Notes under the pieces: generated by a model | Databases searched by the model: none | What the model was told of the DNA's origin: nothing | Seen by the model: only the letters and a program-made list of their open reading frames with translations | Source of the DNA: Clostridia bacterium | GTDB lineage: Bacteria; Bacillota; Clostridia; Oscillospirales; CAG-272 | DNA: 53,760 bases | NCBI GenBank assembly: GCA_024404445.1 | Contig: JAKSPY010000002.1 | Location: 1 to 53,760, forward strand | Direction: 5' to 3' | Part shown: in pieces, positions 7,774 through 45,214 of the stretch | Position numbering within the stretch: the stretch's first letter is position 1 | Layout: each line of letters begins with the position of its first letter | Translations under genes and position numbers: made by a program

Positions 7774-7803
7774 AATCCCACGCGGTTAGGCTAAGGTGCA
7801 AGT

Positions 7804-33404: not shown

Positions 33405-35816
33405 ATGAAAATCAAGTCAATTCTGGTCTGTGCGCTGGCAATGATCTGCGCGGCAGGTTGCCTCGTTTGCGTTGCGGCGGCTGACTCAACACTCACCAGC
33501 AAGAACGGTCTGTATACTTACACTCTTGACGAGAATAAGCACGCGACGATCGTTTCGTATCGCGGTGGGGAAACAAGCATCACGATCAATAAGATCGACG
33601 GCAGATACGCGGTCGTAAAGATCGGTTATGCCGCGTTCGGCTCAAACACCAAGATCGAGAATGTCGAGATATATTCGTCGGTCACTGAAATAGGCGAAAG
33701 CGCATTTGAGGGCTGTACGTCGCTGAAAAGCGTCAGCTTCCGCACCGGCAGTAAGTTGCAAACCGTCGGTGACTATGCATTTTATGACTGTCCGTCACTG
33801 AAATCCGTCAACTTGCCGTCATCGGTAACGTCGATCGGCGACAGCGCGTTTGAGGGTTGTACGGCGCTGACTGAGATATCGCTTGCCGATATGGGCGGGC
33901 TGACCGGCATAGGTCAATATGCGTTTGCGTCATGCTCTTCACTGACCGGCACGTTTACGATCCCGTCGGCGGTATCGTCGATAGGATACGGTGCTTTTTC
34001 ACAATGTGCATCGTTACAGGCATTTGACGTTGCGTCGGGCAATACGACGTTCACATCGACAGACGGCGTGCTGTTCACATCGGATAAGTCCTCGCTTGTC
34101 TGTTACCCCGCCGCAAAGTCCGATGATGATTATACCGTTCCGACAGGCACGGAGAAGATTGCCGACGGCGCGTTCATCGGCGCGACAGTCAAAAACGTCA
34201 CCGTTCCGGACGGAGTCGTTTCGATAGGCGGCAGTGCCTTTTATAAATGCGCGTCGCTGATATCCGTCACGATGCCGCAATCACTGAAATCTGTCGGCTC
34301 ATACGCGTTCCTTGACTGTACCTCACTTGCCGACGTTATCCTGCCCGACGGCATCACGTCGTTGGGCTCATACCTGTTCCGCGGTTGCCTCGGCCTGAAA
34401 AGCGCAAACCTTCCGAAAGGCATGACCGAAATACCGGAGGGTATGTTTGACTCATGCTCGTCGCTCACGGGCTTTACGATACCCGCCGGTGTCAAGTGCA
34501 TCGGGCAGTACGCGTTCAACTATTGCAAATCGCTCACCTCGATCACAATTCCCGCTTCCGTTACGAAAATAAATAACTACGCATTCAGATATTGCACCTT
34601 ACTGACGTCTGTGTCGGCGCCGAACGTAAAAACCTTCGGCAGCTTCGTATTCCAGAACTGCGCGGCACTCAGGTCAGCCGATATAAGCGGCGCGGATAAG
34701 ATACCCGCATTCATCTTTGCGGACTGCGCGGTGCTGTCCGACATCAGACTCCCTGCCGATTATACGTCGATCGGCAATTACGCATTCAAGGGCTGTGAGC
34801 TTTTGCCGTCGTTCACGGTCAGCGACAAGTGCACACGCATCGGCGACTTTGCCTTCAACGGTTGCAAAAAGCTGACTTCATTTACCGTCCCCGCCACGGT
34901 GACGTCGCTCGGTACGGGCGCGCTCAGTTATTCCGGCATTACGGAATGCGTCATCGATATGGACCTTGACACCCTGCCCGGCAGAATGTTTGAGGGTTGC
35001 GCGTCGCTTACTTCCGTCACATTGCCCGCATCATGCCTTTCAATCGGTCCTAGCGCGTTTACCGATTGCGTTCGCCTCGTCAGCCTCGGTGAGGGCTATT
35101 CACCGAAGCACGTCGGCGCGTCGGCGTTCTACGGCTGCCGTAAGCTCTCCGATGTCTATATCGGCACTGAGGATTACGCGATAAACTACGGCGCATACTC
35201 AGGCTGTGACGCGATTGAATCCGTCGTCATACCGGACAATATCACGGAAATAGATTCGTTTGCATTCGCGTACTGTTCATCTCTGCAGAGCGTCAGAATC
35301 AGTGCGGCAACATACATCGGCTATAACGCGTTTGCCGGATGTGCAAAGCTCACGTCCGTCGAAATGCCCGACACGCTTCTGATAATAGATAAGGGTGCTT
35401 TCTCATCGTGCTCAAAGCTCGCTGACATTGACGTGCCGAAATTCGTAACATACGTCGGAAGCGACGCCTTCACCGATACGAAATGGCGCAGAAATCAGAC
35501 GGACGAATGTATAGTCGTCGGTGACGGTGTGGTATATGAGTATACCGGCAGGTCGTCGTTGGTCACGTTCCCGTCCGGTGCAAAGAGAATACCGGCGCGC
35601 ATCATAGCGTCGCTGGACGCAGTAGACACGATATTCATTCCTTCCACGGTGGAATATATATCAAAGACCGCGTTCGTACAGCTCCACTCGCAGAAGAACG
35701 ATCTCGGTCAGACATCGACGTATTATTCGCAGAGATACGTTGAGATCATCGGCAAAAAAGGATCATACGCCGAGGTCTATGCCAATCACGATTATTACAC
35801 ATTTGAAAAATATTGA
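33405..35816 (+). CDS. Secreted BspA-type leucine-rich-repeat surface protein
   Basis: Signal peptide, then more than 25 tandem units of about 23 aa of the type IPxSVTxIGxxAFxxCxxLxSV. Length is 803 aa. Confidence 0.85.
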   Translation: MKIKSILVCALAMICAAGCLVCVAAADSTLTSKNGLYTYTLDENKHATIVSYRGGETSITINKIDGRYAVVKIGYAAFGSNTKIENVEIYSSVTEIGESAFEGCTSLKSVSFRTGSKLQTVGDYAFYDCPSLKSVNLPSSVTSIGDSAFEGCTALTEISLADMGGLTGIGQYAFASCSSLTGTFTIPSAVSSIGYGAFSQCASLQAFDVASGNTTFTSTDGVLFTSDKSSLVCYPAAKSDDDYTVPTGTEKIADGAFIGATVKNVTVPDGVVSIGGSAFYKCASLISVTMPQSLKSVGSYAFLDCTSLADVILPDGITSLGSYLFRGCLGLKSANLPKGMTEIPEGMFDSCSSLTGFTIPAGVKCIGQYAFNYCKSLTSITIPASVTKINNYAFRYCTLLTSVSAPNVKTFGSFVFQNCAALRSADISGADKIPAFIFADCAVLSDIRLPADYTSIGNYAFKGCELLPSFTVSDKCTRIGDFAFNGCKKLTSFTVPATVTSLGTGALSYSGITECVIDMDLDTLPGRMFEGCASLTSVTLPASCLSIGPSAFTDCVRLVSLGEGYSPKHVGASAFYGCRKLSDVYIGTEDYAINYGAYSGCDAIESVVIPDNITEIDSFAFAYCSSLQSVRISAATYIGYNAFAGCAKLTSVEMPDTLLIIDKGAFSSCSKLADIDVPKFVTYVGSDAFTDTKWRRNQTDECIVVGDGVVYEYTGRSSLVTFPSGAKRIPARIIASLDAVDTIFIPSTVEYISKTAFVQLHSQKNDLGQTSTYYSQRYVEIIGKKGSYAEVYANHDYYTFEKY

Positions 35817-35831
35817 TACCCACAGGGTACA

Positions 35832-35869
35832 AAAATCCGTCACTGCCGAAAGCAGTGACGGATTTTTTA
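35832..35869. terminator. Bidirectional intrinsic terminator (ends the LRR gene and the minus-strand peptide-export operon)
   Basis: aaaaatccgtcactgc-cgaa-agcagtgacggatttttt: a perfect 12-bp stem with an A-run and a T-run on either side. Confidence 0.8.
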
Positions 35870-35961
35870 TGTGTTGATCCGTTTCCTTATGATATCGCGG
35901 TGCGATTCATCAAAGGATGACACGATGCTTATGCCACTTACAAGGTTGCGACGCAGCGTGT

Positions 35962-36177
35962 TTATTCCGCGTTTTTATTGTCATCCGTAGCAGACTGATC
36001 GGAAAGACCGGTGCTTGCGTCGGCGTTGTCAGCAGATTGATTCACGGTTTTGTTTGTCAAGCGAAAGGACGACGATACAAACTTAGGCTTATCCCACAAA
36101 AAGATTTTCATGCCCCCTCCGCTGACCTTTTCCGCTTGCTTATCTGTAAGCTCAACAGGCTTATTTGTCTTTTTCAC
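35962..36177 (-). CDS. Double-glycine-leader peptide 3 (21-aa leader plus 50-aa core)
   Basis: MKKTNKPVELTDKQAEKVSGG|GMKIFLWDKPKFVSSSFRL...DDNKNAE. GTG start with AGAGGTG 5 nt upstream. Caveat: the GG codons (GGAGGGGGC) also mimic an SD for the internal ATG at 36111, so a 49-aa leaderless product cannot be excluded. Confidence 0.55.
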   Translation of the reverse strand: MKKTNKPVELTDKQAEKVSGGGMKIFLWDKPKFVSSSFRLTNKTVNQSADNADASTGLSDQSATDDNKNAE

Positions 36178-36234
36178 GCCGACACCTCTTTCTGTCTGTG
36201 ATTCTTTGACGCACTGCCCGAAATGGCAAAGCCA

Positions 36235-36567
36235 TCAATCGTTGATCTGATTTGCCCATGTGGGTGCGCTCGCGTGACCGATGATGAACAGTCTGGATAC
36301 TATTTCCGAGGAAAGCCTACTGATCTCATTTGTCAGAATACCGTGGGTGTAGCACGTCACCTCAAAATAATCCGAAGTTATCACGCCGGTGATGACCTCA
36401 CAGTAGTCATAACTATTATCGAGATTTCTGTTGATGCTTGTCGTTATATACTCGCCGCGCTGATAATCCTCGTTATCTATTCCGCCGAAAACGTATGCGA
36501 GTTCATCGTCTGTCAATTCTTCAGGTATATTCGTCTGATGTTTTTTTATGCTTTTTATCACTGTCAT
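36235..36567 (-). CDS. Double-glycine-leader protein 2 (29-aa leader plus 81-aa acidic core with 2 Cys)
   Basis: MTVIKSIKKHQTNIPEELTDDELAYVFGG|IDNEDYQRGEY.... Its ATG overlaps the TGA of the upstream 5'-nucleotidase gene (ATGA). There is no internal Met near the GG. Confidence 0.65.
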   Translation of the reverse strand: MTVIKSIKKHQTNIPEELTDDELAYVFGGIDNEDYQRGEYITTSINRNLDNSYDYCEVITGVITSDYFEVTCYTHGILTNEISRLSSEIVSRLFIIGHASAPTWANQIND

Positions 36568-38225
36568 TGCTTTATCGTTATCCTGTTATCTACCGTCTTA
36601 TACTGTGAAAGGTCGCCGTCCAACTGGCTGAGGTAATCTATCAGCACCTGATAAATCGGCAGGGCCTCATCGATCACAAGCTTATGATCCGCAAGGAAAT
36701 AGAGCATACCGGAGCCGCCGTTTTTGATCATATAGTCATGGCTGGCAAGGGTATACGTCGCATCAAGGTCGATAGGTGTATAGGCGCCGTCCTTTAACAC
36801 CATGACATCTGAAATGCGGCGTGCGCCGCCGACACCGATAAACGCATCCGTTTCATTGACCTGCACACTGCTGTCGACAGATGTGTCAACGGTGAATTTT
36901 AAGCCGGAAACCTGCTGGAAGCTGCCGTCCTCACCGAACGCTACACCGTCCCTGCTGTACTCTGCCTGTACGTTACGGTAGAAATACTCCATCATATCTA
37001 CGATCTCGGCACCCGTTACCTCAACGACGCAAATCGTATTGTCGTAAGGGTATACGGAGATGACATCGCCGTACGTAACGTCGCCCACGTTGAGATCGGC
37101 ACGGATGCCGCCGCCGTTGCACATTCCTATATCGGCACCGGTCAGAATGCGGTAAGCGTCCGCAACGAAATCGCCGATGGCGACCTCTCTGCTTCGTACC
37201 ATACGGATGCCGTCGCTGTCATAGCACGAAAGATCGGTGTCTATATGACCGATAACGGCCTTCATCTGATTATCCAACTGTTTGCGGATATCGGCGATCT
37301 GCGCCGTGATGGCGTCATCCTTGACTGTATATCTGTCTATGTAACCGACAGAGGCCGTGCCGTCATCTGTCAGAATAAGCTGTCCGATCGCCGACAGCTC
37401 TGTGCCTGTGGAGGATATCATCACATCCTCGCCGTCCTTATTCTGCATGATCCAGCAGGGTGCCTTAACGTGTGAATGCGCATCGAGGACGACGTCAATT
37501 CCCGTCGTATTAGCTACGAGATCGATCGACGTGAACGGCCCCTCTATATCCACGTCAATTCCAAGGTGAGAAAGCACGACGACAAAGTCGGCGCCCTTTT
37601 CATTGCATTCGTCAATGTACTTCTGCGCGTTATCATAAAAATGCCGGGCACCGTCCTTTTCACAGAAATCATAGACGAGCTCGCCGTTTTCCATGAAATG
37701 TTTAGGCGTGGAGGAGGAAATCGACCACGGAGTGGAAATACCGATAAACGCCACCTTTATATCGCCGTAGGTCACGATCTCATAGGGCTTTGTCGCTTCA
37801 CTCATCCAATCCTCGCCGCTTCCGGTGTACGAAATATTACAGTTAAGGAAATGTGAATCCGATAACTCTACTATCCTTTTCAGCTGATCCATACCGAAAT
37901 CAAACTCATGATTGCCGAAAATAGAGAAGTCGTATCCTACGGCGTTTTTCAATTCCACGATGTACTCGCCCTTTGAAACGACGCCCTCATAACTGCCCTG
38001 TACAAAATCGCCGCAATCGGCCAATACGACATAGCGGTATTTTTCGCTGAGGGATTTTTTATACGCGGAAAGACCGGCATAGCCGATATTGGTGTCAATT
38101 CCGCAATGCACATCGTTGGTAAACAATACCACGACGTCGTTTGATCTGTTGTCCTGTGCTCCGCACGCCGTCATGCAAAAGAGCATGGCCAAGCAGAGTA
38201 AAAGTGCAGATAATCTGAGCTTCAT
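36564..38225 (-). CDS. Lipoprotein bifunctional metallophosphatase/5'-nucleotidase
   Basis: Lipobox LFCMTACGAQ. Calcineurin-like motifs are NDVHCG, DCGDFVQG and GNHEFD, with a C-terminal 5'-nucleotidase substrate-binding domain. AAAGGAGAA RBS. Confidence 0.88.
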   Translation of the reverse strand: MKLRLSALLLCLAMLFCMTACGAQDNRSNDVVVLFTNDVHCGIDTNIGYAGLSAYKKSLSEKYRYVVLADCGDFVQGSYEGVVSKGEYIVELKNAVGYDFSIFGNHEFDFGMDQLKRIVELSDSHFLNCNISYTGSGEDWMSEATKPYEIVTYGDIKVAFIGISTPWSISSSTPKHFMENGELVYDFCEKDGARHFYDNAQKYIDECNEKGADFVVVLSHLGIDVDIEGPFTSIDLVANTTGIDVVLDAHSHVKAPCWIMQNKDGEDVMISSTGTELSAIGQLILTDDGTASVGYIDRYTVKDDAITAQIADIRKQLDNQMKAVIGHIDTDLSCYDSDGIRMVRSREVAIGDFVADAYRILTGADIGMCNGGGIRADLNVGDVTYGDVISVYPYDNTICVVEVTGAEIVDMMEYFYRNVQAEYSRDGVAFGEDGSFQQVSGLKFTVDTSVDSSVQVNETDAFIGVGGARRISDVMVLKDGAYTPIDLDATYTLASHDYMIKNGGSGMLYFLADHKLVIDEALPIYQVLIDYLSQLDGDLSQYKTVDNRITIKQ

Positions 38226-38287
38226 TTTTTATTCTCCTTTGATTGTCTTATAATCGATCGGTTTTCGCCTGCGCAAGCACACAGAAT

Positions 38288-38310
38288 TCGGGCCGATATC
38301 ATCGGCCCGA
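38288..38310 (-). promoter_or_regulatory. Perfect 10-bp stem-loop between peptide 1 and the nucleotidase gene (possible partial terminator or mRNA stabiliser)
   Basis: The minus-strand RNA reads UCGGGCCGAU-GAU-AUCGGCCCGA, followed by AUUCUGUGUG (a poor U-tract). Confidence 0.4.
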
Positions 38311-38350
38311 TGAAGACGTATCGCCGTCCGTGCGCCGTCGGATACGAAAA

Positions 38351-38575
38351 TCATTGCAATTCTTTTAGCCTCGTTTCCTGTTGGCTTTGACCTTTATCGC
38401 CTTCGGTACCGTTCCCACCGGCGGTATCGGTGCCGCCCGCCGCATTTACAAATGCGAGACTGTCGTCAGACAACTCCACGGCATCGCGGCTTTCGGTTTC
38501 GCGAATAAGCTCTTCCAGCTTTCTGTTCTTTTCAAATCTCTGATAGTCAAACAATTTTTTCAGCCTGTTTTCCAT
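38351..38575 (-). CDS. Double-glycine-leader peptide 1 (48-aa leader plus 26-aa hydrophilic core)
   Basis: MENRLKKLFDYQRFEKNRKLEELIRETESRDAVELSDDSLAFVNAAGG|TDTAGGNGTEGDKGQSQQETRLKELQ. GAGAGGAGAA RBS 8 nt upstream of the ATG. Confidence 0.65.
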   Translation of the reverse strand: MENRLKKLFDYQRFEKNRKLEELIRETESRDAVELSDDSLAFVNAAGGTDTAGGNGTEGDKGQSQQETRLKELQ

Positions 38576-38754
38576 AAAACATTCTCCTCTCGATTTCAGA
38601 TATTACGTCGCCGGAAACGGCGCCATTTTTTGTTTTTTACGCAAATAAGAAAATCTCCGATTGTCAATATTCTGCCCTGCGTTTTTTTGTATCACACATT
38701 TATACGAACTGTTTTGTGAAAAGGCTACTGTTTTTTTTATTTTTTTTGATTATT

Positions 38755-40950
38755 TTATTTTTCTTCGATATCCAGCCGCTGACGTTCGACAAGCGACGCA
38801 AAATACCCGTTCTTTGCGATCAGCTCATCGTAAGTACCCTCCTCGACGATCTTACCGTGATCCAGATATATGATGCGGTCGGCGTGTTGAATGGTTGACA
38901 GGCGGTGCGCGATGACTATCCTCGTGCATTTCAGTGAATCTATAGCCTCGGAAACCTTTCTTTGCGTGATGTTATCAAGCGCGCTTGTCGCCTCATCAAA
39001 CATCAATATCTTCGGCTTCGGAGCCACGGCCCGCGCAATCATCAGCCTCTGCTTCTGTCCGCCGGAAATACCGCCCTGCCCCTCTGAGATCATCGTATTC
39101 ATGCCCATCGGCATCTCACGGATATCATCGGCGATCGAGGCGATCTCCGCCGCCTCCCACGCCTGATCCATATTGAGCTCCGGAGCGGTGATGACGATAT
39201 TGGAATAGATGTCGCCGAGGAAAAGTTTTCCGTCCTGCATGACGACGCCGATCTTACGGCGCAACGACTCAGGGTCTATCCTTGCCATATCCTTCTTGTC
39301 AAAGAAGATACTGCCCTTTTGCGGTGTTTCAAATCCGAGCATCAGTCGTATCAGCGTGCTTTTTCCGCATCCGGTCGAACCGACAATGGCAAGGTATTCG
39401 CCTGTTTTTATTTTCAGAGAAAGATCGTCGATAACGTTGGGCATTGAGTCGTCATAACGGAACGACACGTGCGACAGCTCAATGGCGCCGCGCAGAGAAA
39501 CGATATTCTCCTTACCGTCGTGTACCTCCGGCTCCGCCTCCATGATCGGCCTCGACATTTCAAGCGTCGGCTTAATATTCGCGATAGTCACGGCAATCGA
39601 AACGACTGACATGAACGACGACGAAACCATGCCGTACGCGGTATTGAACGCATAATAATCCGCTATGCCGACGTTGTTCTTTATCGCCGTCGCATACAGC
39701 ACCAGCGCGCCGATAAGCGACAGTGCGAGGCTTAAAGTCCCGCTGAGCTTCAAAAACAGCGGCTGATCGTAGTTCAGCGCCGCCTCCTTGGCGTAATACC
39801 TTGCCCAACGAGAAAACATTCTTTTTTCCGCACCGGCAAGCTTGATCTTCTGAATTCCGGTGATGGTCGAATACGTCAGGCCGCTCGTTTTGGCGGACAA
39901 CTTCATCGTTTCGCTCGTGATCCTCATTTGTACAAACGTCGTCGCCAGCGACAGTACGATAGTCGCGGCGGTGATCAGCAATGACGGTACAACAAGTGAC
40001 GGAGCAAATACGAAAATCTGACCGATATAGATCAGCGAAAACAACGACGTAATTCCCGTCATACCGATAGTATTGAACAGCGTGGAGCACAACGACTGCA
40101 CATATGCGGCGCGCTGTGAAAGCTCACCGGACGAATACTGCTTAAAAAATGACGGCGGCAGGCTCATTATGCGGTTCATCACCGCAGCCTGTACCGATAT
40201 ATTCTGCTTGATACCGATGCGCGAATTGATCAAGCTCTGAAAAACGCCGAAGAACAGCCGACAGGCCGAAAAGCAGATCATGAATATTGCCAATGATATC
40301 AATACCCTGACGCTACCCGATTCGATGACATCGCTGAACAGCCATTTTGTAAACATCGGGGAAAGCAGACCGAGCGCGGCCGACGCGCCCATCAGCGCGA
40401 TATACAGAACAATATCGGAAATGCTCAATTGCTTTATCATGAATTTCAGCAAATCGCCGATATCCAGCGATTTCTGCGGCAACGGCTCATAAAAGCATAT
40501 AGCCTCGGAGTCGACGAGCTGCTCGGTTTTTCCGTTCATTCTGATTTGCTCGCCGGTCTTGATATTTTTCAGTGTGTAACCCGAAATCTTACCGGGAATC
40601 AGCGCGACGGCAGAGCCGTCCTCTTTCAGCGTGCCCAGCATTGCGCCGCTCGCGCAACGGTACCAGCCCTTATCAAGGATGACGGTGCGGCTTTTTATGC
40701 CGAACGGGCGCATACGGTACTCTATCTGCTCATCCAACGTTTTGATCTGTGTGGGAAGCTCATCGGAATTTGTTTTGCAATGATAGAATTTCAATATTTC
40801 TTCAATAGCCGATCCCGCAATCTCATTCTGACTGAGTGCCTCACGCAGGCGCGTGCCCATCACCGCATTCGCTATGGTATCTATGGCGTCGGCAACATCG
40901 GCGTTATCGGATCTTTCACGACTGCGTAATTGTTCCTCAAACCAACTCAT
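38755..40950 (-). CDS. Bacteriocin-type ABC transporter permease/ATPase without a peptidase active site (ABC2-like)
   Basis: A non-peptidase N-terminal domain of about 170 aa (no QxxxxCG motif), 6 TMs, Walker A GSTGCGKST, signature ISGGQKQR, Walker B ILMFDEATSALD. The start is taken at MSWFEEQ (40950), preceded by AAGGGGGG. Confidence 0.85.
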   Translation of the reverse strand: MSWFEEQLRSRERSDNADVADAIDTIANAVMGTRLREALSQNEIAGSAIEEILKFYHCKTNSDELPTQIKTLDEQIEYRMRPFGIKSRTVILDKGWYRCASGAMLGTLKEDGSAVALIPGKISGYTLKNIKTGEQIRMNGKTEQLVDSEAICFYEPLPQKSLDIGDLLKFMIKQLSISDIVLYIALMGASAALGLLSPMFTKWLFSDVIESGSVRVLISLAIFMICFSACRLFFGVFQSLINSRIGIKQNISVQAAVMNRIMSLPPSFFKQYSSGELSQRAAYVQSLCSTLFNTIGMTGITSLFSLIYIGQIFVFAPSLVVPSLLITAATIVLSLATTFVQMRITSETMKLSAKTSGLTYSTITGIQKIKLAGAEKRMFSRWARYYAKEAALNYDQPLFLKLSGTLSLALSLIGALVLYATAIKNNVGIADYYAFNTAYGMVSSSFMSVVSIAVTIANIKPTLEMSRPIMEAEPEVHDGKENIVSLRGAIELSHVSFRYDDSMPNVIDDLSLKIKTGEYLAIVGSTGCGKSTLIRLMLGFETPQKGSIFFDKKDMARIDPESLRRKIGVVMQDGKLFLGDIYSNIVITAPELNMDQAWEAAEIASIADDIREMPMGMNTMISEGQGGISGGQKQRLMIARAVAPKPKILMFDEATSALDNITQRKVSEAIDSLKCTRIVIAHRLSTIQHADRIIYLDHGKIVEEGTYDELIAKNGYFASLVERQRLDIEEK

Positions 40951-40963
40951 TATCCGACCCCCC

Positions 40964-43135
40964 TTATTCCGCGCTGACAAGATCGCGGTAGACGGTGCTG
41001 TTCTCCATCAGCTCCTTATGCGTTCCGCGATCTGTGATCTCGCCGTGTTCCATTACTATTATTTCATCGCACGAGCGTATCGTCGACAGTCTGTGCGCAA
41101 TGACGATACAGGTTATACCGCGTTCGCGGATAGCCTTTACGACCTCATATTCCGTCTTGGCGTCGAGCGCGCTCGTCGCCTCATCAAGGATGATTATCGT
41201 CGGCTCCTGCGCAAGCGCACGCGCGATCTCAATACGCTGTCTCTGCCCGCCGGAGAAGTCCTTACCTCCCTCGATCAGCTTGTGCTGATAGCCCTTCGGG
41301 CGTTGCATGATGTCGTCGTGTATCTGTGCGTCATGTGCGGCAAGTATCATCTCAAAGTCCTCGATGCTTTTGTCCCACATCTTGATATTATTTGCGATAG
41401 TGTCCTCAAACAGTATAATATCCTGATCCACAACGGCAAGTGAGCCGCGGAAAACATTTTTCGATATGCTGTTCATCGGTTTACCGTCGAACAGGATCTC
41501 GCCGCTCCACGGGTGATAAAGACCCGCAATCAGCTTTGACATCGTGGACTTACCGCATCCGGAGCCGCCGACGATGGCGACACTCTTACCGGGCGTGACC
41601 TTCATGCTGAAATCCTTTATCAGCGGATCGGCAAGAGGCGAATAACCGAATACGACGTTTTTCAGCTCTATTTCGCCGGACAGCTTCTGCTGTTCACCGA
41701 CGTCGCTTTGCTCATTGAATACTATATCGTCGGGATATTCCATGACGTCGTCGACACGCTCCATCTGTGTGCGCATTTCCTGCAACGTCTGACCCGCACT
41801 GATGAGGGTCATGGCAGGCGACATGAACGCCGTCAAAAATCCCTGAAACGCCATTATCATACCGACAGTGAACTGCCCCTGCATCGTCAGCCATACGCCG
41901 AGGAACAGTACCGCGTTATTTGCCACCGTAGATACGAACTGCGGTATCATGCCGAGGTACTGATTCAGCTTCATGAATTTTACCTGCTGGGTATTCACGC
42001 TGGCCTGATAGCCTGCCCATTTCTTGAAATACCCGTTTTCCGAGCCGGATGCCTTGATGGTTTCGATCATTTCGATACCGGCAACGGTTGCTGAAGACAG
42101 CTTCGCGCTGTCACGCATCGAAACACGCGTGACATTGATGCGCTTTTTGGATATGTATCTGGAAATGACGGCATTCACCGTGAGTGCGGCAAGGCCTATT
42201 ATCGTCAGCATCACATTGTAACGCAATATAACGACGAGATAGAATACCATCATCACGGCATTAAGCATCAGCGGGGCGAACGTGCCTATCAGCGTATTTG
42301 CTATCGACGCATTGGCACTCTGTCGGCCCTGTATGTCACCCGCCATGCGCTGTGAAAAGAATTTCATCGGCATTTTCAGTATTTTCCACATATACGTCGC
42401 ACTTCCGACCGACGCCATTTTACCTTTTATGCGAAGCGAGTATATCGCCTGCAATGCCGACATGACGATCTCCACCAGATCAAACACGCCGAGAAACAGC
42501 AAAAACGGAGTTGCCCACCCGGAATCTTTGCCCGTCAGCAGATGATCGAGAAAAATACGGGAGAACGCCGGCTGAACAAATCCCATCAATGCCGCGATAA
42601 CGCCCGTCAGCACAGTGAAAGCGAGCGCCGTTCCCGTACCCTGCAGACGTTTTGACGCAAATGACAGCATGCTTTTCGGCTTACCCGACGGCTCAAACGT
42701 GTCTGACGGCTCAAACTGCAGGCAGATGCCGGTAAAAGATTCATCAAACGTGTCCATGGCGACACTGTACGTTCCCTTTGCGGGGTCGTTCAGATATGCT
42801 CTTCCGCCCTTGAAGCCGTCAAGAACAACAAAGTGATTGAAATTCCAATGTATGATGCACGGGAATTTACCGTGCTCTCTGAGTGTGTCGGGCTCATAGC
42901 GATAGCCCTTTGCCTTGAGGCCGTAGTACCGCGCGGCCTTTAACACGTTACGCGCATTCGATCCGTCGCGCGATACACCGCAGTCCTCACGCACCTGCTC
43001 CAGCGGCACCCATTTATTATAATAGGCCAAAACCATACAAAGGCTTGCCGCACCGCATTCCAATGCCTCCAACTGCATGACGACAGGTACGTTGGCTACG
43101 CCCGTTTTTATCGGATGTTTTCTGTTTTTTGCCAT
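40964..43135 (-). CDS. Peptidase-C39-domain bacteriocin ABC exporter (peptidase/permease/ATPase; ABC1-like)
   Basis: The N-terminal C39 domain has an intact triad context: VMQLEALECGAASLCMVLAYY (Cys), NHFVVLDG (His), AYLNDPAKG (Asp). It also has 6 TMs, Walker A GGSGCGKST, signature FSGGQRQR and Walker B IIILDEATSALD. Confidence 0.92.
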   Translation of the reverse strand: MAKNRKHPIKTGVANVPVVMQLEALECGAASLCMVLAYYNKWVPLEQVREDCGVSRDGSNARNVLKAARYYGLKAKGYRYEPDTLREHGKFPCIIHWNFNHFVVLDGFKGGRAYLNDPAKGTYSVAMDTFDESFTGICLQFEPSDTFEPSGKPKSMLSFASKRLQGTGTALAFTVLTGVIAALMGFVQPAFSRIFLDHLLTGKDSGWATPFLLFLGVFDLVEIVMSALQAIYSLRIKGKMASVGSATYMWKILKMPMKFFSQRMAGDIQGRQSANASIANTLIGTFAPLMLNAVMMVFYLVVILRYNVMLTIIGLAALTVNAVISRYISKKRINVTRVSMRDSAKLSSATVAGIEMIETIKASGSENGYFKKWAGYQASVNTQQVKFMKLNQYLGMIPQFVSTVANNAVLFLGVWLTMQGQFTVGMIMAFQGFLTAFMSPAMTLISAGQTLQEMRTQMERVDDVMEYPDDIVFNEQSDVGEQQKLSGEIELKNVVFGYSPLADPLIKDFSMKVTPGKSVAIVGGSGCGKSTMSKLIAGLYHPWSGEILFDGKPMNSISKNVFRGSLAVVDQDIILFEDTIANNIKMWDKSIEDFEMILAAHDAQIHDDIMQRPKGYQHKLIEGGKDFSGGQRQRIEIARALAQEPTIIILDEATSALDAKTEYEVVKAIRERGITCIVIAHRLSTIRSCDEIIVMEHGEITDRGTHKELMENSTVYRDLVSAE

Positions 43136-43145
43136 GTCGCGCTCC

Positions 43146-43565
43146 TCAATTCAGAACGAATGACATCGGGCGGTAGCTTTCGACCACGAGCTTAGCGTCA
43201 TAGAAGCCGTCCGCGAGAGAAGAACCCAACGATAAAACACATGCATATCCGGATTCACCGTTTTCGCCGATGTCGGTGATGACGGCATCGCAGTCGGCAA
43301 GCTTTACGGTCATACCGACCCGTGCCGATGAAATATTCTCCTCTGAAATATAGCAAACAGCGTCCCCGTTTTCCACGCGGACAATGACCGGCACCGTGCT
43401 GTCTATATGGCCGAATACGCCCCAAACGCAGGCACCCGCCAGCAGAATGATCACGCTGACCAGAATCAGCCACACGCCGGGATTTGACACGCGGATATAA
43501 TCGTCAAGGTTTTCCGGTGATTTGACCCTGTCCAGACTTTTCTTTCTGAATATTTCTTCATTCAT
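43146..43565 (-). CDS. Short HlyD-like bacteriocin-secretion accessory protein
   Basis: FRKKSLDRVKSPENLDDYIRVSNPGVWLILVSVIILLAGACVWGVFG matches the conserved N-terminus and TM of NHLP/NHLM-type HlyD secretion proteins. The protein is only 139 aa, with no coiled-coil hairpin. AAGGAGAA RBS. Confidence 0.7.
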   Translation of the reverse strand: MNEEIFRKKSLDRVKSPENLDDYIRVSNPGVWLILVSVIILLAGACVWGVFGHIDSTVPVIVRVENGDAVCYISEENISSARVGMTVKLADCDAVITDIGENGESGYACVLSLGSSLADGFYDAKLVVESYRPMSFVLN

Positions 43566-43661
43566 TTCTCAGTTTCTCCTTGATACTTATTCACCTTGAC
43601 CGGATCAGCGACTGTTCCGGTGCGCGTGCGTATACCGATATAAAATAATAAACCATTATGT

Positions 43662-43690
43662 ATTATATCATATCACCGCGTATAAGTCAA
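43662..43690 (-). promoter_or_regulatory. Near-consensus extended -10 promoter of the peptide-export operon
   Basis: The minus strand reads TTGACT (43685-43690), 17 nt spacer, TATAAT (43662-43667), with TGa immediately upstream of the -10. It lies about 95 nt upstream of the HlyD-like start. Confidence 0.65.
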
Positions 43691-43779
43691 TCGGATACGA
43701 CCCATAAATTCACGCATTAACGAATCCTGTTCGCGTCACAACATCGGATTCAGCCGACGAAGATATTCGTTTTTCGATG

Positions 43780-43808
43780 TTGACACTGTAAGTGCGATAT
43801 GGTATACT
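43780..43808 (+). promoter_or_regulatory. Near-consensus extended -10 promoter of the 7TM/PrsW pair
   Basis: TTGACA (43780-43785), 17 nt spacer, TATACT (43803-43808), with TGg upstream of the -10. It lies about 130 nt upstream of the ATG at 43941. Confidence 0.65.
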
Positions 43809-43940
43809 TACGTTGGCATTTGTTCCGTGCGGGCGATCCGCGGTATTTGCGATAATCCGACGGAATTATGACGATCACCGACATCATCTTGACTGAACTG
43901 CGGCGTGATATCCGCAATTCTGAAATAAACGGAGTAGATT

Positions 43941-44597
43941 ATGCAAGAAATATCTTTCAGGCTCGTATCCTTTCTGATCGCGGCTTTCGCGTTCGGATTC
44001 GGCGCCGTCTGCCTGTTCAGAAAGAAAAAGCCGCTGTACTTTCAACTGCTTGTATGCGCGGCAGGGTGCTATTGTATCGCACAGCTCGCGACAGTCATCA
44101 ATATCTGGTGCGCCGTGACCTCATCCGTCAGCGTCGGTATGCTGGGTATTTTCGGATGCAATTTCTTTTTGCTGTCGGCGAATTTCGGTACGCTGGACCG
44201 CATCGTCGATGACGGCAGTAATACAAAAGGTCCGGCGCGCGCCGCCGTCATTGCTCCGGTCGTCATGGCCGCGGCCACTGTTGCGGCCTTCTGCGCATGG
44301 GTAAAAAGCGATACATTCTGTGCCTTGGCGTGGGTGATCATGTTATTGCCCGCCCTGCCGGCGTCGTACTTTAATCTGAAGCACATACTGTTGCCGATAG
44401 ACGCATTCGGCTTTTTGCGGGCGACGAAGCCCTGCAATATCATAGCCATCGTATTTTACGTGATGACCGCGGCATACGTCATCGGTTCCGCGTTGGGTAG
44501 CGGCACCGTCGGCGGAATTCTGTCGATATTGATGTCGCTGACCGTTATAGGTCTGACGCTTGCGGCCGTCAAGGGGGCGAAGCAATGGGGAATCTGA
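43941..44597 (+). CDS. 7-TM membrane protein of unknown family (PrsW partner, copy 1)
   Basis: 218 aa with about 7 hydrophobic segments. It shares the motifs K(K/G)KPLYFQ, GCY, ANxG, (F/Y)NL(K/R)H, P(I/V)D and AVKGAxxW with the ORF at 51610-52254. Confidence 0.7.
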   Translation: MQEISFRLVSFLIAAFAFGFGAVCLFRKKKPLYFQLLVCAAGCYCIAQLATVINIWCAVTSSVSVGMLGIFGCNFFLLSANFGTLDRIVDDGSNTKGPARAAVIAPVVMAAATVAAFCAWVKSDTFCALAWVIMLLPALPASYFNLKHILLPIDAFGFLRATKPCNIIAIVFYVMTAAYVIGSALGSGTVGGILSILMSLTVIGLTLAAVKGAKQWGI

Positions 44598-45214
44598 ATC
44601 TTATCCTGTTCATCAGCTTTGCCGCTCCGCTTCTGATGACGCTGTTCGTCTGCCGCGGGAAAGCGAGAACGCTGTTGATTTTTTTGTTTTTCGGTACTGT
44701 CGTGTGTCTGTTCTGCGGTGAATTCAGTGCCATATTACTGAAAACACTTCCGTTCGACCGTCGGTACTTCACGTCCAATTTCACACCACTGTTCGAGGAG
44801 GTATTCAAGGCCGTTCCGATACTCGTTTTTGCGTTTTTGTTCCAGCCGAAAAAGCGCACGTTATTGGAATGCTCACTGTTGGTCGGGGTCGGATTTGCGG
44901 TTTTGGAAAACGCGTTCATCCTCGGCGGATCGGCTACGTCGGTTTCCGTCGTCAATGCGCTGATACGCGGTTTCGGTGCCGGCATGATGCACGGCGTATG
45001 CACGTTGGCCGTCGGATACGGCATGACGTTCGTTCACACGAGACGTAAGCTTTTCTATACCGGCACGATCGCGCTGCTGTCCACGGCGACTATATACCAT
45101 GCGATCTATAATACGTTGGTACAGTCCAATCATCAGCTGGTCGGATTCATATTGCCGGTTGCCACGTTCATCCCCGTCCTTATCCTGCTGAACAAAACTG
45201 CGGGTTTCGACTGA
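44585..45214 (+). CDS. PrsW-family intramembrane protease (copy 1)
   Basis: PrsW signature motifs are present: FEEVFK (EExxK), GFAVLENAF (FxxxE), GAGMMHGV (H) and IYHAIYN (HxxxN). Length is 209 aa. It overlaps the upstream gene by 13 nt. Confidence 0.8.
   Translation: MGNLNLILFISFAAPLLMTLFVCRGKARTLLIFLFFGTVVCLFCGEFSAILLKTLPFDRRYFTSNFTPLFEEVFKAVPILVFAFLFQPKKRTLLECSLLVGVGFAVLENAFILGGSATSVSVVNALIRGFGAGMMHGVCTLAVGYGMTFVHTRRKLFYTGTIALLSTATIYHAIYNTLVQSNHQLVGFILPVATFIPVLILLNKTAGFD

What the first reader, a model, noticed from the sequence alone, without database searches (positions are those of the whole stretch)
35962..38575. Three small ORFs share one leader motif but have unrelated, atypical cores
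Reading the minus strand directly gives three ORFs.
- Pep1 reads ...AVELSDDSLAFVNAAGG|TDTAGGNGTEGDKGQSQQETRLKELQ.
- Pep2 reads ...PEELTDDELAYVFGG|IDNEDYQRGEY..., with an 81-aa core.
- Pep3 reads ...PVELTDKQAEKVSGG|GMKIFLWDKPKFVSSSFRLTNK...DDNKNAE, with a 50-aa core.

The shared (E/V)EL(S/T)D-x2-(L/A)-x2-V-x1-3-GG block matches the double-glycine / Nif11-NHLP leader C-terminus (consensus about ELSDEELEAVAGG) that C39 peptidase domains recognise.

The cores have no similarity to each other.
- Pep1 is short, Gly/Thr/Gln-rich and net acidic, with a second GG.
- Pep2 is a strongly acidic 81-residue domain with two Cys.
- Pep3 has a cationic amphipathic N-half and a polyanionic tail.

Pep1 also carries an unusually long leader of 48 aa, which looks helical (LFDYQRFEKNRKLEELIRETESR). 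One leader grammar on three dissimilar cargos suggests a modular secretion tag rather than a bacteriocin gene family.
Basis: partly seen in the sequence, partly recalled or inferred. Interest (0 to 1): 0.75.

Follow-up and report, generated by a model that had tools for sequence, protein, structure and literature searches.

The report
Export-tagged peptides beside LahT-like transporter
Three small genes carry the double-glycine export tag read by the neighbouring peptide-cleaving ABC transporter, which is an ordinary arrangement, but the first belongs to an unannotated peptide family that in other gut Clostridia almost always sits next to its own sigma factor, which hints at export-linked gene control.

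Summary
Three minus-strand ORFs carry the stated motif: pep1 38351-38575, pep2 36235-36567 and pep3 35962-36177. The motif occurs three times in the window and never in 200 shuffles.

They lie directly downstream of a three-gene NHLP-type export cluster:
- a short HlyD-like protein;
- ABC1 with a C39 peptidase, about 75% identical without gaps to the crystallised LahT150 and with its catalytic residues intact;
- ABC2.

pep2 and pep3 have leaders in the exact LahT register (L-12, L/A-7, V-4, GG). They are best read as strain-specific cargo. That a double-glycine (GG) leader serves as a modular export tag is already established.

pep1 is different. Its GG is two residues out of register. Its second Gly is not conserved; a 92%-identical homologue has Pro there. 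Its 47-residue "leader" defines an unannotated family of 164 unique sequences with an invariant A-A-G and very hydrophilic tails (median 17 aa).

In other genomes, 89-100% of family members abut an ECF-type sigma gene, often with overlapping stop and start codons. A conserved promoter, TAGCC-N16-CGTATAAA, precedes them. The window keeps that promoter (38699-38727) but has lost the sigma gene.

Whether the family is an exported or cleaved anti-sigma factor, a pheromone precursor or plain cargo is unresolved.

The parts
43662..43690 (-). Sigma-70-type promoter (TTGACT, 17 nt spacer, TG-extended TATAAT) upstream of the transporter operon
   Evidence: Matches 11 of 12 consensus positions and has a TG extension. 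The sequence was read. This is a consensus match only.
43146..43565 (-). Short HlyD-like membrane protein, 139 aa. It keeps only the N-terminal anchor region of the NHLP secretion protein.
   Evidence: It matches TIGR03794 profile positions 1-46 at E 1e-8. Homologues sit directly before ABC1 in 78 of 80 related loci.
40964..43135 (-). ABC1: a peptidase-containing ABC transporter (C39 peptidase, permease and ATPase), a close relative of LahT
   Evidence: TIGR03796 scores 940 bits, above the 853 cutoff. Pfam finds Peptidase_C39, ABC_membrane and ABC_tran. Residues 1-147 align without gaps to PDB 6MPZ (LahT147) at E 2e-72, with Q21, C27, H101 and D117 conserved.
38755..40980 (-). ABC2: the partner ABC transporter without a peptidase domain. 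Its N-terminal ~185 aa domain has no assigned fold.
   Evidence: TIGR03797 scores 692 bits, just under the 709 cutoff. It is present after ABC1 in about 74 of the 80 related loci, the rest being cut short. Its N-terminal domain shows no similarity to C39 by hhalign and has no Pfam hit.
38699..38727 (-). ECF-type promoter motif TAGCC-N16-CGTATAAA in front of pep1
   Evidence: It is the only match in the window, where 0.01 is expected. The same motif stands in front of pep1-like genes or cargo operons in 18 related loci.
38351..38575 (-). pep1: a member of an unannotated sigma-linked peptide family, with a conserved 47-aa N-terminus ending in A-A-G and a hydrophilic 27-aa tail
   Evidence: There are 68 homologue clusters and 164 unique family members with an invariant AAG. 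The 16 invariant alignment columns are listed. There is no Pfam or NCBIfam family.
38288..38310 (-). Hairpin after pep1: a possible weak terminator with a 10-bp stem and a poor T tail
36564..38225 (-). 5'-nucleotidase-family lipoprotein gene lying between pep1 and pep2
   Evidence: Pfam finds Metallophos and 5_nucleotid_C. The N-terminus reads ...LFCMTACG. Homologues of 50% identity lie downstream of the cargo genes in L018 and L038.
36235..36567 (-). pep2: an orphan cargo candidate with a 29-aa leader in canonical GG register and an 81-aa acidic core with 2 Cys
   Evidence: The leader reads L-12, L-7, V-4, G-2, G-1. The only homologues are its own >90% identity cluster, among 5.8e9 clusters and 1.84e9 representatives.
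35962..36177 (-). pep3: a cargo candidate with a 21-aa leader (L-12, A-7, V-4, GG|G) and a 50-aa core that is cationic in its first half and acidic in its tail
   Evidence: Two homologues of 46-48% identity exist. One of them has ATG where pep3 has GTG. Between the two, the leader differs by 6 synonymous and 5 non-synonymous codons and the core by 7 and 33.
35831..35867 (.). Strong bidirectional terminator hairpin closing the pep3 unit and the convergent LRR gene
   Evidence: 16-bp stem.

Best explanation
The region is the cargo end of an NHLP/LahT-type peptide export locus in an uncultured gut Clostridia genome.

The transporter. A housekeeping-type promoter drives three genes: a short HlyD-like protein, ABC1 (C39 peptidase plus ABC transporter) and ABC2. 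The C39 domain of ABC1 binds the amphipathic helix at the end of a leader through hydrophobic residues at -4, -7 and -12. It cuts after Gly-Gly, and the transporter passes the C-terminal part out of the cell.

pep2 and pep3. Both have leaders in exactly this register. They are most likely strain-specific exported cargo of unknown activity.

pep1. It is not a third copy of the same design. It belongs to a conserved, unannotated family with a three-helix 47-residue N-terminus, an invariant A-A-G and a short, highly charged, variable tail. In other genomes this family forms a two-gene module with an ECF-type sigma factor. It is transcribed from a conserved ECF-type promoter that also drives cargo genes.

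My preferred reading, which is inferred and not shown, is that the family links sigma activity to the transporter. The peptide would hold the sigma factor and be removed by C39 binding, cleavage or export. Cargo transcription would then follow export capacity.

In this window the sigma gene has been deleted between ABC2 and the promoter. pep1 here therefore depends on a sigma factor encoded elsewhere in the genome, or it is a relic.
For: Shown here:
- Transporter identity and an intact catalytic triad.
- The three-gene transporter set is conserved in 78-80 of 80 related loci.
- The motif is not a chance occurrence.
- pep2 and pep3 sit in the LahT register, read from the sequence.
- The pep3 leader is conserved and translated in a homologue, while its core evolves fast.
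- pep3-like and other GG peptides occur as arrays in related genomes.

Published for a roughly 75%-identical enzyme: LahT150 cuts Nif11, NHLP and short leaders after GG, GA or GS, needs V-4, L-7 and L-12, and tolerates any core (PMC6363468).

pep1 family:
- The 47-aa N-terminus is conserved while the tails vary.
- Of 164 unique members, about 160 have x-x-A-A-G, with V/L/I at G-4, L at G-7 and L at G-12. Tails have a median length of 17 aa and a median GRAVY of -1.33.
- A sigma gene is adjacent in 27 of 27 transporter-anchored loci.
- In an independent sample of 79 species genomes, 75 of 84 family members have an adjacent sigma gene, while only 42 of 84 have the transporter within 6 kb.
- Stop and start codons overlap in L018, L025, L027, L033 and others.
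- In six loci the sigma/pep1-like pair stands alone among unrelated genes.
- The promoter motif is shared.

Sigma loss:
- No sigma homologue is found in the window, even at E<=10 with a family HMM.
- L092 has ABC2, sigma, promoter and then cargo. L094 has pep1-like directly on the sigma gene's RBS.
- A second strain of the window's species has the same gene order as the window, ABC2 then pep1 with no sigma gene.
Against: - No cleavage, export or expression data exist for any of the three peptides.
- pep2 has no homologue outside its own species and no usable structure model (pLDDT 46). It rests on its leader, its position and its ATGA coupling alone.
- For pep1, A-A-G is not a demonstrated C39 site, so it may not be processed at all.
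- Many related loci also carry an RsbW-like kinase, a STAS protein and a SpoIIE-type phosphatase. These could already supply the anti-sigma function.
- After a normal PCAT cleavage the N-terminal part stays in the cytoplasm. An anti-sigma role therefore needs an extra assumption: competition with the C39 domain, or rapid decay of the cut leader.
- Some family members have long GLUG-repeat tails, which look like true extracellular cargo.
- AlphaFold gives only low confidence for pep1 on its own (pLDDT 59).
Confidence: 0.65

Rival explanations
1. The pep1 family is the precursor of an induction peptide, that is a pheromone. It would be cut and exported by the PCAT like ComC, BlpC or PlnA. The short variable tail would be sensed outside the cell, for example by the 5TM-LytS/SpoIIE phosphatase of the partner-switching module. 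The signal would release the sigma factor, which then transcribes the peptide gene, its own gene and the cargo genes in a positive loop.
For: - The gene sits next to the regulator and behind an apparently autoregulated promoter. This is where GG-type pheromone genes sit in class II bacteriocin loci (established knowledge; see PMC5295010 and PMC6016807 as listed).
- Tail length (median 17 aa) and hypervariability, even within one species, resemble pherotypes.
- A membrane sensor with a 5TMR-LYT domain plus SpoIIE, RsbW-like and STAS proteins is encoded in many of these loci.
Against: - Six pairs stand alone with no sensor, transporter or GG peptide within 6 kb.
- The partner-switching genes also occur in many loci that lack both the sigma gene and the pep1-like gene, so they are not a dedicated receptor.
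- The tails are extremely hydrophilic and charged (median GRAVY -1.33, 37% charged) and range from 7 to 81 aa.
- This reading does not explain why 30 extra N-terminal residues are nearly invariant. pep2 and pep3 manage with leaders of 21-29 aa.
- It does not explain why GG is replaced by A-A-G.
Confidence: 0.22
2. pep1 is simply another exported cargo with a third type of long leader, alongside Nif11 and NHLP. Its adjacency to sigma genes would only reflect that it is the most conserved member of the sigma regulon.
For: - In the window's closest relatives (L092, L094, L095, L081) pep1-like genes sit inside arrays of GG peptides. They carry 50-60 aa GLUG-type Gly-rich cores, a motif of extracellular proteins.
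- The window's pep1 follows ABC2 directly, like a cargo gene.
- All family-invariant residues are kept here although the sigma gene is gone.
Against: - The family is single-copy per locus, unlike Nif11 or NHLP cargo families.
- In 37 cases a sigma gene is adjacent and no transporter lies within 6 kb.
- Translational coupling with the sigma gene is common.
- Most tails are 7-25 residues of charged low-complexity sequence.
- The cleavage motif is non-canonical.
Confidence: 0.2
3. The locus is decaying. Its sigma factor, Nif11 precursors and maturase are gone, and pep1, pep2 and pep3 are unexpressed or functionless remnants.
For: - Related loci carry a sigma gene, several Nif11-leader Cys-rich precursors and a radical SAM/SPASM maturase. 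The window has none of these.
- pep2 is an orphan.
- Within-species variation is too low to show selection: 1 synonymous and 3 non-synonymous changes in pep2, and an identical pep3.
Against: - All three ORFs are intact with good ribosome-binding sites, and the transporter genes are full length with their catalytic residues.
- The pep3 leader shows synonymous-biased divergence from a homologue.
- Across strains, the pep1 N-terminus has 0-1 changes in 47 residues against 3-6 in the 27-residue tail.
- A second strain has the same gene order, ABC2 then pep1 with no sigma gene.
Confidence: 0.12

Closest known systems
NHLP/Nif11 three-gene export cluster (TIGR03794, TIGR03796, TIGR03797; Haft, Basu and Mitchell 2010, PMC2887384)
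   Same: It has the same transporter trio in the same order. Downstream lie small ORFs with leaders ending in Gly-Gly and hypervariable cores.
   Different: - The HlyD component is cut down to 139 aa.
- None of the three peptides matches the NHLP or Nif11 leader models.
- No modification enzyme is present in the window.
- pep1 has A-A-G and links to a sigma factor, which that paper does not mention (0 occurrences of 'sigma').
LahT and the lah cluster of Lachnospiraceae bacterium C6A11 (Bobeica et al. 2019, PMC6363468; PDB 6MPZ)
   Same: The peptidase domain is about 75% identical without gaps and has an identical catalytic triad. The pep2 and pep3 leaders satisfy the experimentally defined determinants V-4, L-7, L-12 and GG.
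   Different: The lah substrates are Nif11-leader lanthipeptide precursors. The cargo here has short leaders, unrelated cores and no maturase. pep1's V-N-A-A-G spacing was not among the substrates tested.
PCAT1 and its 90-residue substrate CtA from Clostridium thermocellum (PDB 4RY2, 6V9Z)
   Same: It is a peptidase-containing ABC transporter of a Clostridia member that exports a protein-sized, unmodified GG-leader cargo of unknown function. This is comparable to the 81-aa pep2 core. The peptidase domains are homologous (E 2e-14).
   Different: PCAT1 is a single-gene homodimer. Here two different ABC genes, one without a peptidase, are always paired together with a short HlyD-like protein.
GG-leader peptide pheromones ComC, BlpC and PlnA with their ComAB/BlpAB-type transporters
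   Same: A small GG-type precursor is encoded next to the regulator it controls, behind an autoregulated promoter. It has a variable mature part and is exported by the bacteriocin transporter.
   Different: Those systems use a histidine kinase and a response regulator. Here the partner is an ECF-type sigma factor, the leader is 47 aa long and ends in A-A-G, and the tails are highly charged.
FlgM and sigma-28: an anti-sigma factor removed by export through the flagellar secretion apparatus
   Same: This is the proposed logic only. A small, intrinsically disordered protein encoded with a sigma factor carries the address label of a secretion machine, so transcription follows export capacity.
   Different: The machine is different (type III export against an ABC/PCAT transporter). 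There is no sequence similarity. No binding or export of the pep1 family has been shown. In a PCAT the N-terminal part is normally left inside the cell.

Membership tests
Double-glycine leader substrates of C39/PCAT transporters | The leader ends in GG, GA or GS at positions -2 and -1 | tested here: met
   pep2 ends ...YVFGG|I and pep3 ends ...KVSGG|G. pep1 also has a GG, but see the register row below.
Double-glycine leader substrates of C39/PCAT transporters | Hydrophobic residues at -4, -7 and -12 relative to the cut, as required by LahT150 | tested here: inconclusive
   - pep2 has V-4, L-7 and L-12, so the feature is met.
- pep3 has V-4, A-7 and L-12, so it is met with a small residue at -7.
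- pep1 counted from its GG has A-4, F-7 and D-12, so it is not met. The triad fits only a cut at A-A|G.
- The same holds for about 160 of 164 family members.
Double-glycine leader substrates of C39/PCAT transporters | A cognate transporter with an intact Cys-His-Asp peptidase is encoded nearby | tested here: met
   ABC1 at 40964-43135 is on the same strand and has C27, H101, D117 and Q21.
Double-glycine leader substrates of C39/PCAT transporters | Cleavage at the motif and export of the core | not testable with these tools
   This needs an in vitro protease assay or exoproteomics.
Nif11-type (TIGR03798) or NHLP-type (TIGR03793) leader peptides | A match to the curated leader model | tested here: not met
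   None of the three peptides matches at E<=1. None of 30 pep1-family members matches at E<=10. As a control, a Nif11-type precursor from L018 does hit TIGR03798.
Class II bacteriocins (Pfam Bacteriocin_IIc; NCBIfam CTB family NF038167) | A match above the curated cutoff | tested here: not met
   pep2 hits PF10439 at E 0.28, 11.6 bits, against a cutoff of 27.1. pep3 hits NF038167 at 20.1 bits against a cutoff of 32, over the leader region only.
NHLP bacteriocin export system (three-gene transporter) | TIGR03796, TIGR03797 and TIGR03794 all present above cutoff | tested here: inconclusive
   - TIGR03796 scores 940 against 853, so it is met.
- TIGR03797 scores 692 against 709, just below the cutoff.
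- For TIGR03794, only profile positions 1-46 of 421 are matched by a 139-aa protein.
- The shortened form is the rule in 78 of 80 related Clostridia loci.
Anti-sigma factors of ECF sigma factors (considered for the pep1 family) | Encoded next to, and co-transcribed with, the cognate sigma factor | tested here: inconclusive
   The feature is met for the family: 27 of 27 and 75 of 84 members, many with overlapping stop and start codons. It is not met in this window, which has no sigma homologue.
Anti-sigma factors of ECF sigma factors (considered for the pep1 family) | A recognisable anti-sigma domain, or demonstrated binding and inhibition of the sigma factor | not testable with these tools
   No anti-sigma model in Pfam or NCBIfam is hit. 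The monomer model has low confidence. Complex prediction and binding assays could not be run.

The most novel reading that the evidence does not exclude
The pep1 family is a soluble anti-sigma factor, or sigma-holding partner, that carries the address label of a peptidase-containing ABC transporter. Binding, cleavage or export by the transporter would free an ECF-type sigma factor that drives the cargo genes. Cargo synthesis would then be matched to export capacity, a FlgM-like circuit built on a bacteriocin exporter. The invariant A-A-G in place of G-G would make the peptide a slow or uncleavable pseudo-substrate that reports how busy the transporter is. Searches of the held paper library turned up no paper that links anti-sigma factors with double-glycine/PCAT export.
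Probability: 0.3. Interest if true: 0.85.

Novelty: new variant of a known kind. Interest (0 to 1): 0.55.

Why it matters
The three ORFs as a set add nothing conceptually. GG leaders as portable export tags for LahT/NHLP-type transporters are established, and pep2 and pep3 are simply new orphan cargos.

The value lies in pep1.
- It exposes a widespread, unnamed peptide family in gut Clostridia. I found 164 unique members, and the one homologue that carries a database name is annotated 'hypothetical protein'; the others looked up carry no name.
- The family combines a PCAT-type recognition helix with a strict two-gene partnership with an ECF-type sigma factor and a shared promoter motif.
- If the link is functional, it would show how these very common bacteriocin/RiPP export loci of the gut microbiota are switched on.
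- It would also add a secretion-coupled sigma control mechanism outside flagella and type III systems.
- It would give a defined promoter, sigma and peptide set for engineering expression in Clostridia.

The idea is directly testable with a protease that already works in vitro, because LahT150 is a standard tool.

Tried and rejected
- pep2 homology. The word-indexed search and the exhaustive HMMER search of 1.84e9 representatives found only its own cluster. The one other hit, P0086 (E 2.7e-12), is a 766-aa protein made of 12 tandem repeats with nonsense Pfam hits. I reject it as summed weak matches.
- Structure of pep2. A single-sequence AlphaFold run gave pLDDT 46, which is unusable, so I ran no fold search.
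- Structure of pep1. With a 30-sequence alignment AlphaFold gave pLDDT 59, three short helices and a disordered tail. That is too weak for fold comparison.
- ABC2 N-terminal domain as a degenerate C39-like domain. hhalign of 79-80-sequence profiles gave a probability of 0.7%. There is no PDB sequence match and no Pfam hit. The idea is not supported by sequence.
- Selection within the species. pep3 is identical in two other contigs. pep2 has 1 synonymous and 3 non-synonymous changes, and the nucleotidase gene has 2 and 6. This is uninformative.
- RNA elements. Rfam finds nothing at E<=0.1 in 35700-44000.
- Further copies of the ECF-type promoter in the window. With 2 mismatches allowed there are only chance-level hits.
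- A sigma gene hidden elsewhere in the window. None was found with tblastn or with a 28-sequence HMM at E<=10.
- PrsW, the LRR protein and the upstream membrane proteins as conserved parts of the system. They are absent from the 80 related loci, apart from scattered LRR hits.
- pep1 tails as RiPP cores for the radical SAM enzymes seen in related loci. Only 8 of 154 tails have two or more Cys, so this is unlikely.
- Literature searches for an anti-sigma/PCAT link, and for the motif strings themselves, found nothing.

Full report
**1. The observation**

The three ORFs are present on the minus strand as described.
- pep1 is 38351-38575, 74 aa, with an ATG start and the RBS GAGAGGAGAA.
- pep2 is 36235-36567, 110 aa. 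Its ATG overlaps the TGA stop of the preceding 5'-nucleotidase gene as ATGA.
- pep3 is 35962-36177, 71 aa, with a GTG start 5 nt after AAAGAGGTG.

It occurs in none of 200 shuffles. Core lengths, charges and Cys counts are as stated. The cores show no pairwise similarity.

**2. Surroundings**

Immediately upstream on the same strand lies a three-gene export set.
- A 139-aa protein (43146-43565) matches only the first 46 positions of the NHLP HlyD-type model TIGR03794.
- ABC1 (40964-43135) has Peptidase_C39, ABC_membrane and ABC_tran domains. It scores 940 bits against TIGR03796, above the 853 cutoff.
- ABC2 (38755-40980) has no peptidase domain. It scores 692 bits against TIGR03797, just under the 709 cutoff.

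A strong sigma-70-type promoter precedes the set. A 16-bp terminator hairpin follows pep3. A lipoprotein of the 5'-nucleotidase family lies between pep1 and pep2. The window contains no RiPP modification enzyme.

In 80 related loci fetched with ABC1, the short HlyD-like gene, ABC1 and ABC2 are almost always together. These loci come from gut and rumen Clostridia MAGs and are 65-84% identical to ABC1.

**3. The peptidase**

The first 147 residues of ABC1 align without a gap to LahT147 (PDB 6MPZ) at E 2e-72. Identity is about 75%. Q21, C27, H101 and D117 are all conserved.

For LahT150 it has been shown experimentally (PMC6363468) that:
- it removes Nif11, NHLP and short lanthipeptide or glycocin leaders after GG, GA or GS;
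- 13 leader residues are enough for recognition;
- V-4, L-7 and L-12 sit in a hydrophobic groove and cannot be charged;
- the core sequence is irrelevant.

That a leader is a portable tag for this transporter class is thus established. Haft et al. 2010 had already tied the same three transporter families to hypervariable GG peptides.

**4. pep2 and pep3**

Counting back from the GG gives these registers:
- pep2 reads L-12, L-7, V-4, F-3, G-2, G-1.
- pep3 reads L-12, A-7, V-4, S-3, G-2, G-1, followed by a third Gly.

Both fit the LahT rules.

pep3 has two homologues of 46-48% identity.
- One of them (L089) has ATG exactly where pep3 has GTG.
- Between the two genes the leader shows 6 synonymous and 5 non-synonymous codon differences. 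The core shows 7 and 33.
- The leader is therefore translated and conserved, while the core evolves fast.
- In L089 the gene ends an array of four GG peptides.

pep2 has no relative outside its own >90% identity cluster in either protein search. The single extra hit is a repeat artefact. Its reality rests on the canonical leader, its position and the ATGA coupling. AlphaFold gave no usable model.

Related loci carry many other GG-tagged products:
- Nif11-leader Cys-rich mini-proteins with a radical SAM/SPASM enzyme;
- an NlpC/P60 hydrolase with a GG leader;
- peptides with a further leader type, MKTKEELNALKEEV...EEELxQVxGG.

**5. pep1 is a different thing**

A search with pep1 returned 68 clusters. 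They share the first 47 residues at 55-79% identity and diverge completely afterwards.

No Pfam or NCBIfam model matches any of 30 members, even at E<=10. The one homologue that carries a database name is called 'hypothetical protein'.

Pooling all sources gives 164 unique members.
- About 160 have x-x-A-A-G, with V/L/I four residues, L seven residues and L twelve residues before that Gly.
- The next residue is E (87), D (22), G (19) or another residue.

The hydrophobic triad therefore has the LahT spacing, but it points to a scissile position between the two Ala. A cut after A-A-G is one residue out of register.

The window's second Gly is a minority feature. It is replaced by Pro in a 92%-identical homologue (P0017).

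The tails have a median length of 17 aa (range 7-81). Their median GRAVY is -1.33, 37% of residues are charged, and they rarely contain Cys. A subset has GLUG-type Gly-rich repeats.

AlphaFold with the family alignment predicts three short helices (2-8, 18-30, 37-45) and a disordered tail at low confidence.

**6. The sigma link**

An HMM of the 47-residue region finds one co-oriented copy in 27 of the 80 transporter loci. All 27 have an ECF-type sigma gene directly beside it. This gene is about 160 aa, has Sigma70_r2 and r4_2 domains, and scores 101-114 bits against TIGR02937.

Two gene orders occur:
- the sigma gene lies downstream, with abutting or overlapping stop and start codons;
- in the closest relatives of the window, the sigma gene lies upstream.

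An independent sample was fetched with the peptide alignment itself from species-representative genomes. It gave 84 genes in 79 loci.
- 75 have a same-strand sigma gene within 400 nt (65 of the 70 that have room on both sides).
- Only 42 have ABC1 or ABC2 within 6 kb.
- At least one apparent exception (L092) in fact has the sigma gene one gene further away.
- Six pairs sit alone among unrelated housekeeping genes.

A conserved promoter-like motif, TAGC(C/T)-N16-CGTAT(A/C)AA, occupies three kinds of position:
- it precedes the peptide-sigma bicistron;
- where sigma comes first, it lies between the sigma gene and the next gene;
- in some loci it precedes the Nif11 cargo genes.

**7. The window's own state**

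The motif occurs once in the window, at 38699-38727. This is just after the ABC2 stop codon and 124 nt before the pep1 ATG. The chance expectation is 0.01.

No sigma homologue exists anywhere in the 53.8 kb. Two relatives show how this state arose.
- L092 (ABC1 84% identical) has ABC2, then sigma, then the promoter, then a GG-NlpC/P60 gene, then pep1-like.
- L094 has pep1-like fused directly onto the sigma gene's ribosome-binding site.

So the sigma gene has been lost independently in close relatives. In the window it was deleted between ABC2 and the promoter. A second strain of the species has the same gene order, ABC2 then pep1 with no sigma gene.

The pep1 N-terminus keeps all 16 family-invariant residues. 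Across strains it has 0-1 changes in 47 residues, against 3-6 in the 27-residue tail.

**8. Mechanism**

Shown, or following from a close experimental homologue: ABC1 is an active-type GG protease and exporter, and the pep2 and pep3 leaders meet its recognition rules.

Inferred: both peptides are cut after GG and exported. Their activities are unknown. They are not typical bacteriocins by composition, and sequence cannot decide the point.

For the pep1 family I consider three roles.

(B) Sigma-holding partner. The peptide would be removed by C39 binding, cleavage or export. I estimate about 0.3-0.35. Points in favour:
- a self-contained two-gene module;
- translational coupling with the sigma gene;
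- a conserved N-terminus well beyond what export needs;
- tails that look like featureless threading handles;
- a deliberately non-canonical cut site.

(A) GG-type induction peptide. I estimate about 0.22. The operon position, tail length and tail variability favour it. So does the 5TM-LytS/SpoIIE/RsbW-like/STAS module found in many loci. That module also occurs without the sigma/peptide pair, and it is missing from the stand-alone pairs.

(C) Ordinary cargo with a third long leader type. I estimate about 0.2. The GLUG-type members inside cargo arrays favour it.

The RsbW-like kinases could already be the anti-sigma factor, which weakens (B). None of the three roles is demonstrated.

**9. Comparison and novelty**

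As a set, the finding is a new member of a known kind: an NHLP/LahT-type export locus with GG cargo.

The pep1 family is a variant that I could not find described in Pfam, NCBIfam or the searchable literature. Its distinguishing features are:
- a PCAT-type recognition helix;
- an invariant A-A-G;
- an obligate ECF-sigma neighbour;
- a shared promoter.

Hence I rate it 'new variant of a known kind', with moderate interest. If the export-coupled sigma control proves real, the interest would be high.

Noticed in passing
window 36564-38225 (-); L018 16318-18192; L038 17328-19007: A 5'-nucleotidase-family lipoprotein gene sits inside the cargo region, and its stop codon overlaps the pep2 start. Homologues of about 50% identity also lie downstream of the cargo and maturase genes in L018 and L038. 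Weaker homologues occur in L046, L031, L022 and L080. The recurrence suggests that a secreted nucleotidase is a repeated accessory of these loci.
   Followed up: partly
window 44585-45214 (+): A PrsW-family intramembrane protease (PF13367, 55.6 bits) is encoded divergently from the transporter operon, after a 218-aa membrane protein with no family. In Bacillus, PrsW is the site-1 protease of an anti-sigma factor. It is not conserved in the 80 related loci.
   Followed up: partly
L018 3932-7075; L033, L040, L051 and L027 about 6300-9470; L003 12466-15304; L087 4569-7405: Many related transporter loci carry a partner-switching set either upstream of the short HlyD gene or between ABC2 and the sigma gene. 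The set comprises a STAS protein, a 5TMR-LYT membrane sensor, a SpoIIE-type PP2C phosphatase and an RsbW-like kinase, which are fused into one 838-aa protein in L003 and L087. It is present in roughly half of the 80 loci, including loci without the sigma/pep1-like pair. It is absent from the window.
   Followed up: partly
L081 6276-6554; L089 348-1096; L092 7406-7940; L094 4616-4870; L095 1885-2492: A further unannotated GG-leader type, MKTKEELNALKEEVETLNKKLAEL(T/N)EEELxQVxGG, probably helical, is attached to unrelated cores in arrays. The one member tested had no NCBIfam hit.
   Followed up: no
L092 5542-5949: An NlpC/P60 cell-wall hydrolase domain (PF00877, E 2e-8) carries a short GG leader. 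It is the first gene behind the ECF-type promoter, so a folded enzyme appears to be PCAT cargo.
   Followed up: partly
L018 13116-15047 and 15062-16447; also L015, L016, L026, L029, L041, L051: These loci hold families of Nif11-leader precursors with cores of about 70 aa. The cores are Cys-rich and zinc-ribbon-like, with recurring ...CxxCG...CxxCxYxSYEKGLWLCN. The precursors lie next to a radical SAM/SPASM enzyme. There are up to nine paralogues per locus.
   Followed up: no
window 40411-40980 (-), the N-terminal ~185 aa of ABC2: This domain is conserved in 79 related loci. It has no Pfam family and no PDB sequence relative, and it shows no profile similarity to the C39 domain of ABC1. Its role in a two-gene PCAT is unknown.
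   Followed up: partly
window 33405-35816 (+): A BspA-type leucine-rich-repeat protein of 803 aa with a signal peptide is encoded convergently with pep3. LRR_5 proteins also lie next to the cargo region in L031, L028, L001 and L009.
   Followed up: no
window 38606-38622, in the 5' leader of pep1: A GC-rich hairpin (CGTCGCCGGAAACGGCG) lies between the ECF-type promoter and the pep1 ribosome-binding site. On the opposite strand it reads as a terminator-like site. No Rfam family matches it.
   Followed up: no
L142 and L150 (both on contig JHWU01000007.1 of Lachnospiraceae bacterium AD3010); L106 5601-6195; L109 5941-6517: Some genomes hold two pep1-like genes, either in tandem or at separate loci on one contig. 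Sigma/peptide paralogues acting in trans are therefore plausible for the sigma-less window.
   Followed up: no
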